Source: a phage
Length of the DNA: 64,000 nucleotides
Sequence record: PZ445428.1
Direction: 5' to 3' (one strand)
Both the position numbers and the translations under genes were made by a program. Under the pieces are notes generated by a model. The model made no database searches, had not been told where the DNA came from, and saw nothing but the letters and a program-made list of their open reading frames with translations. This document shows, piece by piece, positions 4,852 to 11,394 of this stretch (position 1 is its first letter; every line of letters starts with the position of its first letter).

Positions 4852-5742
4852 TTATACCAAATCTTTAAGCGATTCAGCAACTAAAATTTCAATACGTTGT
4901 GCTAACGTATCGATCTCTTCTTTATTAAGATCACCTGGGTCTTTTCCTTCAGGAAGAAGGAAGTTACCAACTACAGGTGTTAAACGTGTTTTTGTACGGA
5001 TTAATTTAGCCAATGCTTGGGCAGCTTTATTACCCGAAGCATCGTTATCTAGTAAGATAACTACTACTCTAACTCCAGCAATAATATATGGGCTGAACTT
5101 ATCTGCAATGTTATCAGAAGTAAACTGATGTGTACCAAAGCAACAAGAGGCATAGTTTATCCCATTATCTTCTAGGTTCAACATATCAAAGATGCCTTCA
5201 ACTAGAACGAGAACTGGAGTATTATATCGTACAGGAAAAATCGGGGGTGAAACTTGTTTAGGTTTTACTAAGTATTTAGGAGGGGCAGAACTGTTTATAG
5301 AACGACCCAGGAATAGGATATTACGTCCAACAGCATCTGTTATTGGGAACACGATTCTGCCTTCCCAGTCTGCTTGATGTTGGAAAGCAAAATATTTCTT
5401 CAAGGTCTTAGAACTGATACCTCGGAAATCACCTTCGAAAAGGTAAGCAGATTCAGGAATTGCAAGATTCGTAGATCCATTCCTGATCTCTGAAATCTTT
5501 TTACGTACTTGTGACAATCTTGGTGACTGTCTGTACTGAGTCTCATTAAAATAATGGTAAATGCTCGGTATACCTTTACCGAAGCCGCAACTCAAGCAAT
5601 GCATAACTCCTGATTCAGGATCAATACGTAAACTTGGGTGCTTATCATCATGATCTGGGTTGAGACAACAGATGAGGATGTCCCCACCTGTGTCTTTGTA
5701 TTCAATGCCTTTCAGATCAAGTAGTTCTGTTATCCTACTCAT
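4852..5742 (-). CDS. DNA primase (DnaG-like, zinc finger plus TOPRIM)
   Basis: Zinc-binding CLNPDHDDKHPS...HCLSCGFG; TOPRIM motifs VLVEGIFDMLN and ILLDNDASG. Confidence 0.85.
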   Translation of the reverse strand: MSRITELLDLKGIEYKDTGGDILICCLNPDHDDKHPSLRIDPESGVMHCLSCGFGKGIPSIYHYFNETQYRQSPRLSQVRKKISEIRNGSTNLAIPESAYLFEGDFRGISSKTLKKYFAFQHQADWEGRIVFPITDAVGRNILFLGRSINSSAPPKYLVKPKQVSPPIFPVRYNTPVLVLVEGIFDMLNLEDNGINYASCCFGTHQFTSDNIADKFSPYIIAGVRVVVILLDNDASGNKAAQALAKLIRTKTRLTPVVGNFLLPEGKDPGDLNKEEIDTLAQRIEILVAESLKDLV

Positions 5743-7211
5743 ATATCTTTGGCCTCTTCACCTGAGGAATTTTCTGGTTTTTCTTTCTTAGCACGTTTAG
5801 GTTGGGCTGGTTTATCCTTCTCGATCGGAATAACAAATTCAGCTTCCATTTGAGTGATATCTTCCATTGCCAAGTTAGTAGTGTTATCCATTCGTAGAGT
5901 TTCCCAGTTCATCTTAGGCATAAACTTCACACTATCAGAGGAACGAGTCTTAACGAAGTCAAACATAATAGCACCCTGACCATTATCAGCTTTAGCAGCA
6001 TTAAGGTTGGCAGCCATGTCTGCGGAATCAAGGATACCTTTAGACATACGAGTTCTACCGTCTTGATCAATCTGGTAAGGAGCTACACCAGCAACATTAT
6101 GTTTCTGGCATATAGATTTGAAAGATGAACTTACAACCATCTGCTCTTTCCAGTCATACATGTCAATGGTTTTGGAATCTGGAAGTCTAGTCTGGTTAAT
6201 GTAGTCCAGTAGAGCTACAGTAACTTTATCACCATACTTAGCAACTAGTTTGTTTAGTTCTACGTCTACTGTAGTAATGGAGAGTTCGGGATCATACACA
6301 ACGATCATTGGAGTATGTAACTCATGACTTTCTAACAGCTTACTTTCCATATCATAGAAGTCGCTCATTCTAGCCATTGTGTACTGCTTAACGAAGTTAT
6401 CGAAAAGTTCTTCACCACCATTAAACATTCTAGCCCTAGTTCTTGCTAATCTCAAAAGAGGAGCGCCATCAAGGGTGTTGTTACGCATTGCCAGTGCAGA
6501 TACACCAGCTAACATTGCTAAATTACGCCTAAACACTTCGTGCTCTTTCATCTCAATTGAGAAATATGGAGCAATGTCTCCATTCAAATATTGCTGAACC
6601 TGTATGTTTGAACAGATAATGGATTTACCAGTACCACGCCAACCACCAAGCAGTAACGTTTCTGTACGAGCTAAACCAATTTGCGCGTCGAACTCATTAC
6701 AAATACCAAGAGCAATCATGTTAAGTTTGGTATCTTCTTCTCTCTGGAAAATACGCATTGTGTCTGCGTTGAATACCTTTCCAGTATTCGTTACTTTCTC
6801 TTCTAATTTTAAGTGAAGGGAGGCAACCCTGTTGAGAATTTCTCCCTGATCCAGCATTGTTAAATCTTGAAGCACGTCTGTTTCTAGAAGTTTCAGGAAT
6901 AGATCCTGTGTATATTCAGCTTCTAGGACTTCAAGTGCCTGTTCCATGCTCACTTCTGGAATTTGAGTGTTAGCTAAGACGACTAGAGCTTGAGAAAGGC
7001 GGGCGTTCCTGTTGGCCTCAAGCATAAGTGCGTCAATGGACGGCATTGCGTTATATTTTTTATAATAATTCTGGACGGCTTGGTAAATTGAGGAGAAAGC
7101 GTCATTAAAATGATCTTTATGCAGTTTTGAGAATGTTTCCAATGCTATTTGTTTCTGTTCAGAAGCCAGAAGCATCTTCAACACTACAGCTTGCACGTTA
7201 AACAAGGTCAT
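5739..7211 (-). CDS. DnaB-like replicative helicase (RecA-fold ATPase)
   Basis: P-loop GGWRGTGKS; track start 7262 lies inside a terminator hairpin, so the start is moved to the Met at 7211 (AGGAG just upstream). Confidence 0.65.
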   Translation of the reverse strand: MTLFNVQAVVLKMLLASEQKQIALETFSKLHKDHFNDAFSSIYQAVQNYYKKYNAMPSIDALMLEANRNARLSQALVVLANTQIPEVSMEQALEVLEAEYTQDLFLKLLETDVLQDLTMLDQGEILNRVASLHLKLEEKVTNTGKVFNADTMRIFQREEDTKLNMIALGICNEFDAQIGLARTETLLLGGWRGTGKSIICSNIQVQQYLNGDIAPYFSIEMKEHEVFRRNLAMLAGVSALAMRNNTLDGAPLLRLARTRARMFNGGEELFDNFVKQYTMARMSDFYDMESKLLESHELHTPMIVVYDPELSITTVDVELNKLVAKYGDKVTVALLDYINQTRLPDSKTIDMYDWKEQMVVSSSFKSICQKHNVAGVAPYQIDQDGRTRMSKGILDSADMAANLNAAKADNGQGAIMFDFVKTRSSDSVKFMPKMNWETLRMDNTTNLAMEDITQMEAEFVIPIEKDKPAQPKRAKKEKPENSSGEEAKDI

Positions 7212-7244
7212 TCTCCTTTGCACGCTTTCGTGCCTTCTAAATGC

Positions 7245-7277
7245 AAAAAGGGGAAGGAGCATAGCCCCCTCCCCTTA
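7245..7277 (-). terminator. intrinsic terminator downstream of 7294-8061 gene
   Basis: Minus-strand RNA forms GGGGA...TCCCC stem followed by TTTTT. Confidence 0.5.
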
Positions 7278-7293
7278 GGTTTAATTTACCAGA

Positions 7294-8061
7294 TTATTCA
7301 GCAGCCGCAGCTTTTGCATCCAGTTTAGCACGCTTAGCAGCACCATCATAGTCCTTAGCAACCAGACCACGACGAGACAGCATAGATTTAACACCGCGCT
7401 CAGACTTACCAGTTTTCTCAGCGATATCAGCAACAGTCATGTTAGCCAGATCCAGACCTTCTAACAGATCTTCGCGAGTTTTAGCGCTTGAAGTTTCCTG
7501 TACCGGCATTGCAGCGATACGACCTTCACGAAGCAGGCTCAGAGCTTTACCACGGATCTGCTTGATATTGCGACCGAAGTGAGCAGCGATAGCTTCAATA
7601 GTTGCACCAGCAACAACCTGATTAACGAAATCAGTTTCTTCGTCAGGAGTGAAGGAACGAACGGCAGCAGCTTTTTCAGTTGGCTTAACAGCAGCAGTCA
7701 TTTCCAGACTCAGAATCTTACCCTGTACCTGCTTAGCACCGAACTGACCACCAGCTACAGCAGCAGCGATTTCAGCGTAGGTATACTGACCAGCATGAGA
7801 GTTCAGGAAATCAACCAGTTCAGCTTCCTGCTCAGGAGTCCACGGGGATTTCTGTACTTCGTTAGCTTTCTGTACTTCGAAGCCTTCTTTACGCAGCTTA
7901 GAACCAACAGAGCGGGCGGTTACGTCCTTGCCAGTTTCAGCAGCCAGTTCTACAGCGATAGCAGCAACTTGTTCTTGAGAGATTACAGCTACACCCAGAG
8001 CAACGGCTTTAGCTTTCAGAGACTCGGTTACACCTTCTACGTTCCAGTTCAGTTTAGACAT
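7294..8061 (-). CDS. DNA-binding protein with four tandem HTH-like repeats
   Basis: 255 aa, Ala-rich; four repeats of the form acidic-x-[TI]xxEIAxxxGxxxxxV[RK]xKxxSLxRxG. Confidence 0.6.
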   Translation of the reverse strand: MSKLNWNVEGVTESLKAKAVALGVAVISQEQVAAIAVELAAETGKDVTARSVGSKLRKEGFEVQKANEVQKSPWTPEQEAELVDFLNSHAGQYTYAEIAAAVAGGQFGAKQVQGKILSLEMTAAVKPTEKAAAVRSFTPDEETDFVNQVVAGATIEAIAAHFGRNIKQIRGKALSLLREGRIAAMPVQETSSAKTREDLLEGLDLANMTVADIAEKTGKSERGVKSMLSRRGLVAKDYDGAAKRAKLDAKAAAAE

Positions 8062-8063
8062 TA

Positions 8064-8837
8064 TTATTTTTTCTCCAATAGTTCTTTAATCGACAGGATT
8101 TCTATCCCATTCGTTTCGGCTTTCTTATAAGATGAGGAAGAACGCTTTGATTCATCCTCACAGATGAGGTAGTTTACGTCTTTGGTAACGGACTTCTTAA
8201 CCGTATATCCTAGACTTTCTAAGTAGTTTGTTGCATCCGTTCTATTTGCAAAATCTTGCAAAGAACCGGTAATACATACCACGATTCCGTTCGGTTGAGC
8301 AACTAAATCATCGATAAAGATGATATCAGCTTTTGTGCCCCGAATACCAGAACTAAATTTCCATGGTAGTTCGATAACATCCTTGCCTTGTGGGGAATTT
8401 AGCCAGGCTTTATAATTTTCTCCAGCTTTGCCGTCAGCCTTAACATCATTAAAACTAATGCAACCCTGGGATAGCTTTTTAGCAGCAACCTCTCCAATCA
8501 GAGGGATTCCTAAAGAACCGAGAACTGAACCAAAGTCAATGTCTCCGCGAACCTTAGTATTTAACTCGCTAATTAACTTAGCGGCAACCTTACTTCCCAC
8601 AGCTCCGACCAAATCTTCTTCGGTCAGGTAAAACAGTTCTGAGATCTTAGTCAGTTCCAGCTTTTCAATTGTTTTCGGGCCAAAGCCCTTTAACTTCATC
8701 TTTGTGCAGAAGTTCTCAATTAACTTACTTGACTGAGCTGGACAGTTGGACTTATTCCGACAGAATAATTGTCCGTTGACAAGATCTAGCTTAGAACCAC
8801 AAGAGGGACATTGTGTTGGAATTTCGATTTTCATCAA
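8064..8837 (-). CDS. ligB: NAD-dependent DNA ligase, C-terminal subunit (Zn finger, HhH, BRCT)
   Basis: CPSCGSKLDLVNGQLFCRNKSNCPAQ zinc finger followed by HhH-like and BRCT-like segments; located downstream of the adenylation subunit. Confidence 0.75.
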   Translation of the reverse strand: MMKIEIPTQCPSCGSKLDLVNGQLFCRNKSNCPAQSSKLIENFCTKMKLKGFGPKTIEKLELTKISELFYLTEEDLVGAVGSKVAAKLISELNTKVRGDIDFGSVLGSLGIPLIGEVAAKKLSQGCISFNDVKADGKAGENYKAWLNSPQGKDVIELPWKFSSGIRGTKADIIFIDDLVAQPNGIVVCITGSLQDFANRTDATNYLESLGYTVKKSVTKDVNYLICEDESKRSSSSYKKAETNGIEILSIKELLEKK

Positions 8838-8864: not shown

Positions 8865-8893
8865 ATTATAGCAAGTATTTAAGCATTTAGCAA
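8865..8893 (-). promoter_or_regulatory. sigma70 promoter between the two ligase genes
   Basis: Reverse complement reads TTGCTAaatgcttaaatacttgcTATAAT then ATAAATTGATAAGGAAG. Confidence 0.6.
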
Positions 8894-9040
8894 CTACAAT
8901 TTTAACTAACTTTGCTTACCCTCGCCATAACTTTCTATCCCTCAACTGAATGATAATAGTATATACCTAAGCGGCGAAAATGTCAATAACCACTTTATAA
9001 TTCCGACATGGGAAACGGGTAGCAAAGGGTTATGAATTAC

Positions 9041-10054
9041 TTAATCTACTCGCTCTACAATACATGGGATTACACCACCAGCACGAATCACTCGAATCTG
9101 GCAACCGATCTCTAAATCGAGAGCGTTAATGTAATCAACGTTATTGAGAGTTGCTTTAATAATCTTGGCATCGTCAATAATTACCGGTTCGAAATATCCA
9201 ACAGGAGTTACTTTACCAGAAGCCCCTACCTGCCACTCAACTTTGAGAAGAGTTGTAATTTCGCCTTCTTCATCTTGTTTAATTGCATAAGCACCACGAG
9301 GATGTTTATTTGTCCAACCTTCACGGAAGAATTTGTTGTTGTCATTAATACGAACAACTTTACCATCCATTGGATACCAGTTGAAGTAGTTTTTAATATT
9401 CAGTACAGTGATGAAATCTTCGTTAGCTAACCAAGACATATCATCTAAGTAAGAGCCTGTAATACCTACAGAATCTTCGGAACACTGAATACCATAAGCT
9501 ACAAAGATCAATCCACCTTCCGCAATACGTTCGATGAAGTCATCTTCTTCTTTTAAGTTAATAGCACCAGAAGCGTAGTTACGTTTGTTTTCTACTTCTT
9601 TAGTGATAAGAACTTCACCAGTGATTTGAGTTGGTACTTTCTGAGAAATCTTTTTCGGAATGTTCAGCAATCTAACGTTGCTTGTGACATCATTTCCTAG
9701 AATACCATTACCACGAGTTAACGCTTGAACAAACGTTCCGTCGATATACAACAGAGAAATTGCGCAACCGTCTAGCTTATCAGTTTCTACATCATCAAGA
9801 GTAGTGAATGGAGCTTTATCACCCCGATCGAAGTAAACTTTCTGCAAAGAATACATACGATACAGATGTGGGATATCACCTTTCGGACCGATGGCATCTT
9901 CCGCTGTTGGGAAACGTTTAAGCAGACGATCATACTCAGCATCAGAGATAATACTATAACCCTGATAATACGCTTCTTGACAACGTTGGATAAACTCTTT
10001 TACATTATTCATCGTCGGCGATTTCCATCTTGAGTTCTTTATTATACTGCGCAA
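9041..10054 (-). CDS. ligA: NAD-dependent DNA ligase, N-terminal adenylation/OB subunit
   Basis: KxDG adenylation motif in VETDKLDGCAISLLY; 337 aa. Confidence 0.8.
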   Translation of the reverse strand: MRSIIKNSRWKSPTMNNVKEFIQRCQEAYYQGYSIISDAEYDRLLKRFPTAEDAIGPKGDIPHLYRMYSLQKVYFDRGDKAPFTTLDDVETDKLDGCAISLLYIDGTFVQALTRGNGILGNDVTSNVRLLNIPKKISQKVPTQITGEVLITKEVENKRNYASGAINLKEEDDFIERIAEGGLIFVAYGIQCSEDSVGITGSYLDDMSWLANEDFITVLNIKNYFNWYPMDGKVVRINDNNKFFREGWTNKHPRGAYAIKQDEEGEITTLLKVEWQVGASGKVTPVGYFEPVIIDDAKIIKATLNNVDYINALDLEIGCQIRVIRAGGVIPCIVERVD

Positions 10055-10290: not shown

Positions 10291-10599
10291 CTATTCAGTC
10301 TTGGCTTTGAGTTCCTCAGCTCTTTTCTGAACTTCGGCAAGAACCTCAGATTCACTAAGGATTTGCGTAAAAGCATAGAATAGCTGTGAAGTAGTTTCTA
10401 GAGTGTACGGAAAAGAGAAGCCGGATTTCGTTGGAAACCATTCTCCAGTAATATCCTGGAGCCAATATCTAATTCCCATGTATAGATTCCCACGAAATTC
10501 AGATACTGTCAATCTTACTTGTTCACCTTCCTTTTCCCATAGAAGGATTGACTGATCATCAATGTGTCCTTCATAGTTTTGGTTTACCTGATCGCTCAT
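10291..10599 (-). CDS. hypothetical protein
   Basis: 102-aa ORF. Confidence 0.5.
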   Translation of the reverse strand: MSDQVNQNYEGHIDDQSILLWEKEGEQVRLTVSEFRGNLYMGIRYWLQDITGEWFPTKSGFSFPYTLETTSQLFYAFTQILSESEVLAEVQKRAEELKAKTE

Positions 10600-10983: not shown

Positions 10984-11394
10984 TTATTTAGTGATAGCTC
11001 GGACAGCTTCTGCCAGATGAGCAGCTGCTTTACCAGTCAGCTTGTCGATAATCGCTGAATCCAGGAAGTCTGGAGCCAGACCTGCATCAGAGAATGCAGA
11101 CAGAAGATCGGCATGAGCCTGAGCTTTAGAAGTACGAGAACCGCCAGAAGCTTTTTCTCCAGTAGATGCAGTTGATTTGGAAGCAGAGCCAGCAGCTTTC
11201 TTGATATACAGACCCGCTTTAGTCAACTTCATACGGAAGCCGTTCGGAGTTACACCGTTTTCCTGAGCGATTTCGCTAACAATTTCCATGCTAACGCCCG
11301 GACGCTCATCTTCTGGGAATTGCTCCATACGAGCAACGTAATCGGAAGACATTTTTTCGAACAGTTCATCAGTCCACTGAGTTGGAGTAGTCAT
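10984..11394 (-). CDS. hypothetical protein
   Basis: 136-aa ORF downstream of the promoter at 11453-11481. Confidence 0.5.
   Translation of the reverse strand: MTTPTQWTDELFEKMSSDYVARMEQFPEDERPGVSMEIVSEIAQENGVTPNGFRMKLTKAGLYIKKAAGSASKSTASTGEKASGGSRTSKAQAHADLLSAFSDAGLAPDFLDSAIIDKLTGKAAAHLAEAVRAITK

What the first reader, a model, noticed from the sequence alone, without database searches (positions are those of the whole stretch)
7294..8061. Protein built from four tandem HTH-like repeats
The 255-aa Ala-rich protein contains four roughly 45-aa repeats each ending in a sigma-region-4-like helix-turn-helix signature. Its position in the replication block is consistent with a dsDNA-binding regulator.
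Basis: seen in the sequence. Interest (0 to 1): 0.4.

Follow-up and report, generated by a model that had tools for sequence, protein, structure and literature searches.

The report
Phage T5 D5 DNA-binding protein

Summary
The window is Escherichia phage TrudiGerster, a T5-like phage. ORF 7294..8061 (- strand, 255 aa, 17.6% Ala) is the ortholog of T5 gene D5: 248/255 residues identical, in the same place between ligB and the DnaB-like helicase.

- A self-comparison of the family profile gives a one-unit-shifted alignment over 153 columns (E 3.5e-10).
- All six pairwise comparisons of the units beat column-shuffled controls.
- AlphaFold2 (pLDDT 94) predicts four helical helix-turn-helix (HTH) units plus a C-terminal helix. 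Three units have three clear helices; in unit 4 the first helix is reduced to one short turn.
- 11 of the 15 invariant residues lie in the positively charged third helix of a unit.

One correction: the units are 46-62 aa long with a spacing of 59-68 aa, not about 45 aa. Only unit 4 looks like sigma region 4. The closest solved fold is the GcrA DNA-binding domain.

The interpretation as a dsDNA-binding regulator in the replication block matches what is already recorded for T5 D5: DNA-binding, required for replication and late transcription, very abundant, and recently reported as a retron trigger.

My best mechanism is a multivalent protein that coats dsDNA, not a sigma factor. Novelty is low. 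The explicit four-module architecture and the GcrA-type resemblance are small additions.

The parts
7294..8061 (-). D5 coding sequence, 255 aa plus stop codon; ortholog of T5 gene D5 (T5.118)
   Evidence: ORF; 100% identical to MZ501108, annotated 'putative DNA binding protein'; 248/255 identical to T5 D5; PHROG 323, E 2.7e-70.
7870..8055 (-). HTH unit 1 (aa 3-64): helices 11-22, 29-43, 49-58. The third helix ARSVGSKLRK has net charge +4; R50, K55 and R57 are invariant.
   Evidence: repeat HMM domain 1, iE 1.8e-9.
7684..7851 (-). HTH unit 2 (aa 71-126): helices 76-88, 95-101, 109-118. Myb-like start 'SPWTPEQEAEL'. The third helix AKQVQGKILS carries invariant Q113, G114, K115 and L117. This is the most conserved unit.
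   Evidence: R2-R3 hhalign probability 95%, E 2e-8; Pfam Myb sub-threshold at 18.0 against 24.4.
7504..7662 (-). HTH unit 3 (aa 134-186): helices 139-150, 155-162, 166-178. The third helix IKQIRGKALSLLR has net charge +4; G171 and K172 are invariant.
   Evidence: the R3 HMM finds unit 2 at iE 0.004; Pfam HTH_23 and EutK_C sub-threshold.
7342..7485 (-). HTH unit 4 (aa 193-240): the first helix is reduced (205-207), then helices 210-217 and 221-231. The third helix ERGVKSMLSRR has net charge +3. This is the only unit that reaches Pfam Sigma70_r4_2.
   Evidence: PF08281, 28.3 bits against cut-off 25.7, aa 204-230; three-unit-shift alignment to unit 1, E 9e-4.
7297..7344 (-). Conserved C-terminal helix (aa 240-254, GAAKRAKLDAKAAAAE); G240 invariant, A241 and K246 nearly so. 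A candidate self-association or partner-binding tail (inference).
8073..8076 (-). Shine-Dalgarno-like GGAG, 11 nt upstream of the D5 ATG and inside the end of ligB. The ligB stop codon is 2 nt before the D5 start.
   Evidence: Read directly from the sequence and the ORF list.
7248..7276 (-). Intrinsic-terminator-like hairpin (13-bp stem, 8 G-C pairs) followed by TTTGCATTT, 18 nt after the D5 stop codon. It probably ends the ligB-D5 transcript.
   Evidence: close relatives annotate a 'terminator' here (H4 and H5).
8865..8986 (-). Two sigma-70-type promoter matches upstream of ligB: TTGACA-17-TATACT at 8986..8958, and TTGCTA-17-TATAAT with an extended TG at 8893..8865. They lie in the intergenic gap where T5 has early promoters P-K28b and P-K28a.
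   Evidence: T5 annotation.

Best explanation
The gene encodes the Epseptimavirus ortholog of phage T5 protein D5.

**Architecture.** One polypeptide carries four tandem helix-turn-helix modules (three with three clear helices, the fourth with a reduced first helix), joined by conserved linkers of 7-25 residues. It ends in a short conserved Ala/Lys helix. In every module helices 1 and 2 are acidic or neutral and helix 3 is basic, and helix 3 holds most of the invariant residues. Each module therefore most likely puts helix 3 into a DNA major groove.

**Proposed mechanism.** With four such modules, one monomer contacts a long stretch of duplex DNA multivalently. Affinity would come mainly from backbone contacts rather than from one specific site. 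The protein is made early, from the strongly promoted ligB-D5 operon, and in very large amounts. It would coat replicating phage dsDNA. That would change the state of the template so that phage replication can proceed and host sigma-70 RNA polymerase shifts from early to late genes. The same DNA-binding surface is what a type IX retron senses.

**What is shown here:** identity with D5, the four-module repeat, the HTH fold prediction, the conservation and charge pattern, synteny and operon signals.

**What is taken from annotation or papers:** DNA binding, the requirement for replication and late transcription, abundance, and the retron trigger role.

**What is inferred:** one groove per module, coating of DNA, and the roles of the linkers and tail.
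For: **Identity**
- 100% match to phage TrudiGerster and 97% identity to T5 D5.
- PHROG 323 at E 2.7e-70.
- Same gene order ligB-D5-DnaB helicase-primase-polymerase, also kept in a distant relative.

**Repeats**
- Family self-alignment shifted by one unit, E 3.5e-10 over 153 columns.
- Six of six unit pairs score above column-shuffled controls.
- 166 of 174 full-length family members have four units, and four distant relatives have five.

**Fold**
- AlphaFold2 pLDDT 94, four helical HTH units.

**DNA-contact signature**
- 11 of 15 invariant residues lie in the third helices.
- Third helices have net charge +2 to +4; helices 1 and 2 have +1 to -4.

**Function and abundance**
- T5.118 annotation: DNA-binding, needed for replication and late transcription.
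- D5 is 'very abundant' in T5 and BF23 lysates (PMC10644984).
- Two strong promoter matches and a terminator frame the ligB-D5 unit.
- D5 triggers retron-Kva2, reportedly through an HTH-DNA interface, and is mildly toxic on its own (bioRxiv 10.64898/2026.07.11.737809).
Against: - No binding experiment or protein-DNA model was run here.
- pTM 0.55 means the relative placement of the four modules is uncertain, so their spacing along DNA cannot be checked.
- The whole protein is electrically neutral (pI 6.8), which is unusual for a non-specific DNA-coating protein.
- Linkers and tail are as conserved as the helices. This hints at a defined geometry or a protein partner rather than a loose string of modules.
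- Non-specific, cooperative dsDNA binding comes from my memory of papers from 1979-1983 (McCorquodale; Rice; Fujimura and Roop) that the library does not hold.
- The retron preprint reports an escaper phage with a W74* stop in D5. That sits badly with D5 being essential.
Confidence: 0.6

Rival explanations
1. D5 is a sequence-specific late-gene activator that works like GcrA. Its HTH modules would read a composite site near late promoters, and it would recruit or stabilise sigma-70 RNA polymerase there. The replication defect of D5 mutants would then be secondary.
For: - Many records annotate it as a 'late gene transcription factor' or 'transcription factor'.
- The best structural match is the DNA-binding domain of GcrA, a sigma-70 cofactor.
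- GcrA aligns over its full length to the repeat profile at hhalign probability 96%.
- T5 late genes are transcribed by host sigma-70 polymerase and the switch mechanism is still unknown (PMC7472727).
Against: - No match to Pfam GcrA (PF07750), and there is no room for a C-terminal sigma-interacting domain. Four units plus a 15-aa helix fill the protein.
- Abundance in the range of the major lysate bands is far above what a site-specific activator needs.
- The gene is always embedded in the replication module.
- No candidate DNA site was identified; I did not search for one.
Confidence: 0.2
2. D5 mainly recognises DNA structures rather than plain duplex, such as the site-specific nicks of T5 DNA, hairpins or replication intermediates. 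It would protect or mark them for the replication and repair machinery.
For: - The retron preprint reports D5 engaging an msdDNA stem-loop. The interface is an AlphaFold3 model; the remodelling of the complex was measured by mass photometry.
- In a distant relative the D5-like gene lies two genes from a 'Phage_T5_Nicking_endo' gene.
- The Timeless DNA-binding repeat, reported to detect G-quadruplex structures, is one of the two best sequence-profile matches.
Against: - The annotation and older biochemistry describe a duplex-DNA-binding protein (otherwise from memory).
- The stem-loop interface in the preprint is a prediction, not a solved complex.
- Gene adjacency in one distant contig is weak evidence.
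Confidence: 0.13
3. D5 is a phage sigma factor or sigma mimic that replaces or competes with sigma-70 region 4 on RNA polymerase.
For: Pfam Sigma70_r4_2 passes its cut-off on aa 204-230 (28.3 against 25.7). 17 of 63 repeat units across the family hit this model. E. coli sigma-70 region 4 aligns to the repeat profile at 81%.
Against: - Pfam gives no Sigma70 region 2 match and only a below-cut-off region 3 hit (16.1 bits against 25.3).
- The isolated unit 4 falls just below the cut-off (25.3).
- T5 genes of all classes are transcribed by the sigma-70 holoenzyme (PMC7472727).
- An architecture of four HTH modules is unlike any sigma factor.
Confidence: 0.03
4. The 'repeats' are an artefact of Ala-rich amphipathic helices, with no real repeated domain.
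For: Single-sequence BLASTP shows no off-diagonal match. Units 1 and 4 are not found by HMM-against-sequence search with the other units.
Against: - Column shuffles that preserve composition never reach the observed scores (0/40 for all six pairs).
- The shifted self-alignment runs in register through three consecutive units.
- The AlphaFold2 units have high confidence.
- Unit number varies between 4 and 5 among relatives.
Confidence: 0.02

Closest known systems
Bacteriophage T5 gene D5 protein (T5.118, YP_006946; PHROG 323 'transcriptional regulator, D5-like')
   Same: 248/255 residues identical, same length, and same position between ligB and the DnaB-like helicase D6. The family is present in 903 phage records; every record shown is a T5-like genome of 102-127 kb.
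   Different: Essentially nothing: seven substitutions, none at an invariant position. This is the same protein in a sister genus (Epseptimavirus rather than Tequintavirus).
GcrA DNA-binding domain (Caulobacter crescentus; PDB 5yiu; Pfam PF07750)
   Different: GcrA has one DNA-binding domain plus a C-terminal sigma-70-interacting domain. D5 has four DNA-binding units and no such domain. No Pfam PF07750 hit. hmmsearch of the repeat profile gives only E 0.34 for GcrA. GcrA's preference for methylated sites (from memory) has no known counterpart in T5.
Tandem Myb/SANT-type repeats (c-Myb R1-R3; human Timeless DNA-binding domain, PDB 6taz/6t9q)
   Different: The Pfam Myb model is below its cut-off (18.0 against 24.4). 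Only the first of the three regularly spaced tryptophans of Myb repeats is present (W6, W74, F137). c-Myb R2 aligns only over helix 1.
Sigma-70 region 4 (Pfam PF08281/PF04545)
   Same: The HTH of unit 4 reaches the Sigma70_r4_2 cut-off.
   Different: No significant sigma region 2 or 3, and four HTH units instead of one. Not a sigma factor.

Membership tests
T5 D5 protein family (PHROG 323) | Significant full-length sequence similarity to T5 D5 | tested here: met
   97% identity over 255/255 aa; PHROG 323 E 2.7e-70 covering aa 1-253.
T5 D5 protein family (PHROG 323) | Location in the early replication module, between the NAD ligase and the DnaB-like helicase of a T5-like phage | tested here: met
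   the same neighbourhood in a 37%-identical relative.
T5 D5 protein family (PHROG 323) | Binds double-stranded DNA; required for replication and late transcription | not testable with these tools
   Stated in the T5 RefSeq annotation. The primary papers are not held in the library.
Sigma-70 family sigma factors | Region 4 HTH (-35 recognition) | tested here: inconclusive
   PF08281 scores 28.3 against cut-off 25.7 on aa 204-230 in the whole protein, but 25.3 for the isolated unit.
Sigma-70 family sigma factors | Region 2 (core binding, -10 recognition) | tested here: not met
   No Sigma70_r2 hit at E up to 10. Region 3 gives only 16.1 bits against 25.3, with no stretch passing.
Myb/SANT repeat proteins (PF00249) | Pfam Myb_DNA-binding at or above its gathering score | tested here: not met
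   18.0 bits against 24.4; 9 of 63 units hit, best E 0.007.
Myb/SANT repeat proteins (PF00249) | Three regularly spaced Trp/aromatic residues forming the core of each repeat | tested here: not met
   Only the first aromatic is kept (W6, W74, F137). The protein has 2 Trp in total.
Myb/SANT repeat proteins (PF00249) | Tandem three-helix HTH fold | tested here: met
GcrA family (PF07750) | N-terminal GcrA-type DNA-binding domain | tested here: inconclusive
GcrA family (PF07750) | C-terminal sigma-70-interacting domain | tested here: not met
   No PF07750 match. Residues 1-240 are taken up by four HTH units and only a 15-aa helix follows.

The most novel reading that the evidence does not exclude
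The D5 unit is a true evolutionary relative of the GcrA / Timeless type of DNA-binding domain. On this reading D5 is a four-fold concatenation of a sigma-70-cofactor DNA-binding module. It would coat replicated phage DNA and so directly license host sigma-70 polymerase to use late promoters. That would provide the missing mechanistic link between replication and the early-to-late switch in T5-like phages. D3, which seems to carry one copy of the same unit, would act in the same pathway.
Probability: 0.25. Interest if true: 0.5.

Novelty: already known. Interest (0 to 1): 0.22.

Why it matters
D5 is one of the oldest genetically defined T5 functions, yet how it couples replication to late transcription is unsolved, and a 2020 study calls the T5 temporal switch unexplained. 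Knowing that D5 is four GcrA-like HTH modules with conserved basic third helices gives concrete residues and sub-domains to mutate. It also explains how one small protein can bind long stretches of DNA, and it refines the 2026 report that a retron senses 'the HTH' of D5, because there are four candidate surfaces rather than one. For a genome scan, this finding is a correct reading of an ordinary, already annotated gene.

Tried and rejected
- **BLASTP of the protein against itself** (word size 2, E 1000): diagonal only. The repeats are too diverged for single-sequence detection.
- **hhalign without a template** (old self-alignment mode): empty output in this version. Replaced by query = template with alternative alignments.
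- **HMM-against-sequence cross-detection between unit types:** significant only for R2/R3.
- **Pfam on whole protein, isolated units and 63 family units:** never lists GcrA, so GcrA membership is rejected.
- **PDB sequence search with the whole protein:** only insignificant Myb hits, E at least 0.45. With the repeat profile the top hits were designed coiled coils, which are composition artefacts.
- **A GcrA HMM built from 120 close homologs:** does not detect D5. Those homologs are more than 83% identical, so that profile adds little.
- **afdb50 fold search:** library unavailable.
- **BFVD search:** only D5 orthologs match globally. Other multi-HTH phage proteins have TM about 0.2.
- **Primary D5 papers** (PMC353123 and others): not held.
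- **DRT4 trigger 'ORF55' of T5:** a different protein, not D5.
- **BLASTP of D3 against D5:** no similarity. Only the profile comparison shows a weak signal.
- **Context look-ups for five-unit relatives P0124 and P0240:** contigs of only 1.2-1.5 kb.
- **Not attempted:** a search for a DNA motif bound by D5.

Full report
**What and where.** The window matches Escherichia phage TrudiGerster (Demerecviridae, Epseptimavirus) at 100% identity. The ORF at 7294..8061 on the - strand encodes 255 aa with 45 alanines (17.6%), MW 27.0 kDa and pI 6.8. It lies between the NAD-ligase B subunit (8064..8837) and a DnaB-like helicase (5739..7262). Primase, DNA polymerase, the D10-type helicase, SSB and the SbcCD-like nuclease follow downstream.

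**Identity.**
- The protein is 248/255 identical to T5 D5 (T5.118), which occupies the same slot in T5, ligB-D5-D6.
- PHROG 323 'transcriptional regulator, D5-like' matches at E 2.7e-70.
- tblastn finds it in 903 phage records from Salmonella, Escherichia, Klebsiella, Vibrio, Proteus, Aeromonas and Pectobacterium phages. Every record shown is a T5-like genome of 102-127 kb.
- An exhaustive search of 1.84 billion cluster representatives gives only 168 hits, about 50 of them full length. The family is therefore narrow.

**Is the repeat real?** Single-sequence BLASTP shows nothing off the diagonal, so I tested at the family-profile level.
- A 119-sequence alignment compared with itself gives, after the identity alignment, a one-unit shift: aa 70-225 on 2-170, 153 columns, probability 96.7%, E 3.5e-10.
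- The three-unit shift (205-236 on 27-64) has E 9e-4 and the two-unit shift (136-217 on 5-102) has E 3e-3. This is the expected signature of four tandem units.
- With the alignment cut into four segments, every pair exceeds 40 column-shuffled controls, which keep composition. R2-R3 scores 41 and the other pairs 17-25, against a null of about 9.5 +/- 2.
- The alignments share one register: an aromatic residue (W6, W74, F137) and an acidic first helix, '..IA..' in helix 2, and [RK]-x-[VI]-x-[GS]-K-x-L in helix 3.
- With the less sensitive HMM-against-sequence search only R2 and R3 recognise each other. Units 1 and 4 are old, diverged copies.
- Across the family, 166 of 174 full-length members show four units. 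Four distant relatives of 283-309 aa show five. This is independent evidence for a modular repeat.

**Structure.**
- AlphaFold2 on a 73-sequence alignment gives pLDDT 94 and pTM 0.55. That means confident domains with a less certain mutual arrangement.
- Helices lie at 11-22/29-43/49-58, 76-88/95-101/109-118, 139-150/155-162/166-178 and (205-207)/210-217/221-231, followed by a terminal helix at 240-254.
- In the viral structure library only D5 orthologs match globally.

**DNA-binding signature.** Of the 15 invariant residues in the family alignment, 11 lie in the third helices: R50, K55, R57; Q113, G114, K115, L117; G171, K172; G223, L228. The third helices carry net charge +2 to +4, while helices 1 and 2 carry +1 to -4. 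This fits four recognition helices. The linkers ('VKPTEK', 'MPxQ') and the C-terminal 'DYDGAAKRAKLDAK' are also conserved. They probably fix the geometry or bind partners (inference).

**Which HTH family?**
- Pfam gives only one hit above its cut-off: Sigma70_r4_2 on unit 4 (28.3 against 25.7). Myb, HTH_23, HTH_28, HTH_33 and EutK_C are all below their cut-offs.
- Over 63 units from the family, the commonest Pfam hits are Sigma70_r4_2 (17 units), Myb (9) and HTH_23 (8). GcrA never appears.
- The repeat profile against PDB sequences gives the Timeless repeat at E 2.4e-4, sigma region 4 at about 0.03, and GcrA at 0.34 with a full-length alignment.
- By profile-profile comparison the GcrA domain aligns end to end with the combined repeat profile at 96% probability, E 7e-9 to 8e-10.
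- Hand-picked controls score as follows: Timeless repeat 95%, sigma-70 region 4 81%, c-Myb R2 31% (helix 1 only), engrailed 10%, and Hin, Cro and NarL at or below 2%.
- The unit is therefore a three-helix HTH closest to the GcrA and Timeless type. D5 is not a GcrA family member: there is no PF07750 hit and no sigma-interacting domain. It is also not a sigma factor, because it has no region 2.

**Function from the record and the literature.**
- The T5 RefSeq entry describes D5 as a DNA-binding protein required for DNA replication and late transcription and involved in early shut-off. It cites McCorquodale et al. 1979, whose reference I saw in PMC12630848 but could not read.
- From memory, and unverified here: Rice et al. 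1979 and Fujimura and Roop 1983 reported cooperative binding to duplex DNA.
- D5 is 'very abundant' in T5 and BF23 lysates (PMC10644984).
- The mechanism of the T5 early-to-late switch is still called unknown (PMC7472727).
- A July 2026 preprint identifies T5 D5 as the trigger of the type IX retron-Kva2. It models 'a helix-turn-helix motif' of D5 on the msdDNA stem-loop, and it reports an escaper phage carrying four D5 changes (G53D, W74*, V149I, G232D). It does not mention the four-fold repeat.

**Expression signals.**
- Two sigma-70-type promoter matches lie upstream of ligB on the - strand (8986..8958 and 8893..8865), where T5 has P-K28b and P-K28a.
- The ligB stop codon is 2 nt before the D5 ATG, and a GGAG lies 11 nt upstream of that ATG.
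- A 13-bp G+C-rich hairpin followed by a T-rich tail lies 18 nt after the D5 stop codon.
- D5 is therefore the last gene of a strongly promoted early ligB-D5 operon.

**Mechanism I commit to (confidence about 0.6).** D5 is a multivalent protein that coats dsDNA. Each of its four HTH modules places a basic helix in a major groove, and the linkers and tail set spacing and cooperativity. The protein would load in bulk on phage DNA and make it competent for replication and for late transcription by the host polymerase.

Rivals, with my confidence in each:
- a GcrA-like site-specific activator or sigma-70 cofactor (0.2);
- a binder of DNA structures such as nicks or hairpins (0.13);
- a sigma mimic (0.03);
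- spurious repeats (0.02).

**Verdict.** The protein is already known. The explicit four-module description and the GcrA-type affinity are modest additions.

Noticed in passing
window 10984..11394 (- strand), 136 aa; ortholog of T5 D3 (T5.113, 'DNA binding protein'): The N-terminal part, about aa 6-62 ('QWTDELFEKM...EIVSEIAQENGVTPNGFRMKLTKAGLY'), looks like a single copy of the D5 repeat unit. hhalign against the repeat profile scores 23.7 (E 3e-4), while 60 shuffles give mean 10.0, sd 2.1, max 16.4. It is the best non-self hit of the unit-4 HMM among 627 window ORFs, at iE 0.065. BLASTP shows nothing. The retron-Kva2 escaper T5.2 carries D3 mutations.
   Followed up: partly
window 7248..7276 and 7260..7262 (- strand): The annotated ATG start of the DnaB-like helicase (7262) sits in the loop of the terminator-like hairpin that follows D5 (GGGGGCT-ATG-CTCC). 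T5 D6 is annotated at the same relative position. Either the start is misannotated (a second in-frame ATG lies 17 codons downstream, next to AAGGAG) or helicase translation is tied to the hairpin.
   Followed up: no
proteins P0124, P0182, P0202, P0240; loci L005 and L006, 8001..8852: Distant D5 relatives of 283-309 aa carry five repeat units instead of four. In uncultured-phage contigs one of them lies between an unsplit NAD ligase, a dNMP kinase, a T5 nicking endonuclease and a dUTPase on one side, and DnaB, primase and PolA on the other.
   Followed up: partly
window 10291..10599 (- strand), 102 aa: This small ORF, annotated 'hypothetical' in the record, matches the Pfam PC4 domain (ssDNA-binding transcriptional coactivator p15) at E 1.5e-8, 34.4 bits against cut-off 25. 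T5 labels the equivalent gene T5.115 'transcriptional regulator'.
   Followed up: no
bioRxiv 10.64898/2026.07.11.737809; D5 residues G53, W74, V149, G232: The reported retron escaper T5.1 has a premature stop at W74 of D5 plus three missense changes. D5 is described as required for replication, so a viable W74* phage is unexplained. It could reflect a mixed population, read-through or re-initiation, or a dispensable C-terminal three-quarters. W74 is the first aromatic residue of unit 2 and G53 lies in the third helix of unit 1.
   Followed up: no
window 8064..8837 and 9041..10054 (- strand): The NAD-dependent DNA ligase is split into two genes, A and B, separated by a roughly 200-bp promoter-bearing gap, as in T5. 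The distant relative in L005 has a single 596-aa ligase.
   Followed up: no
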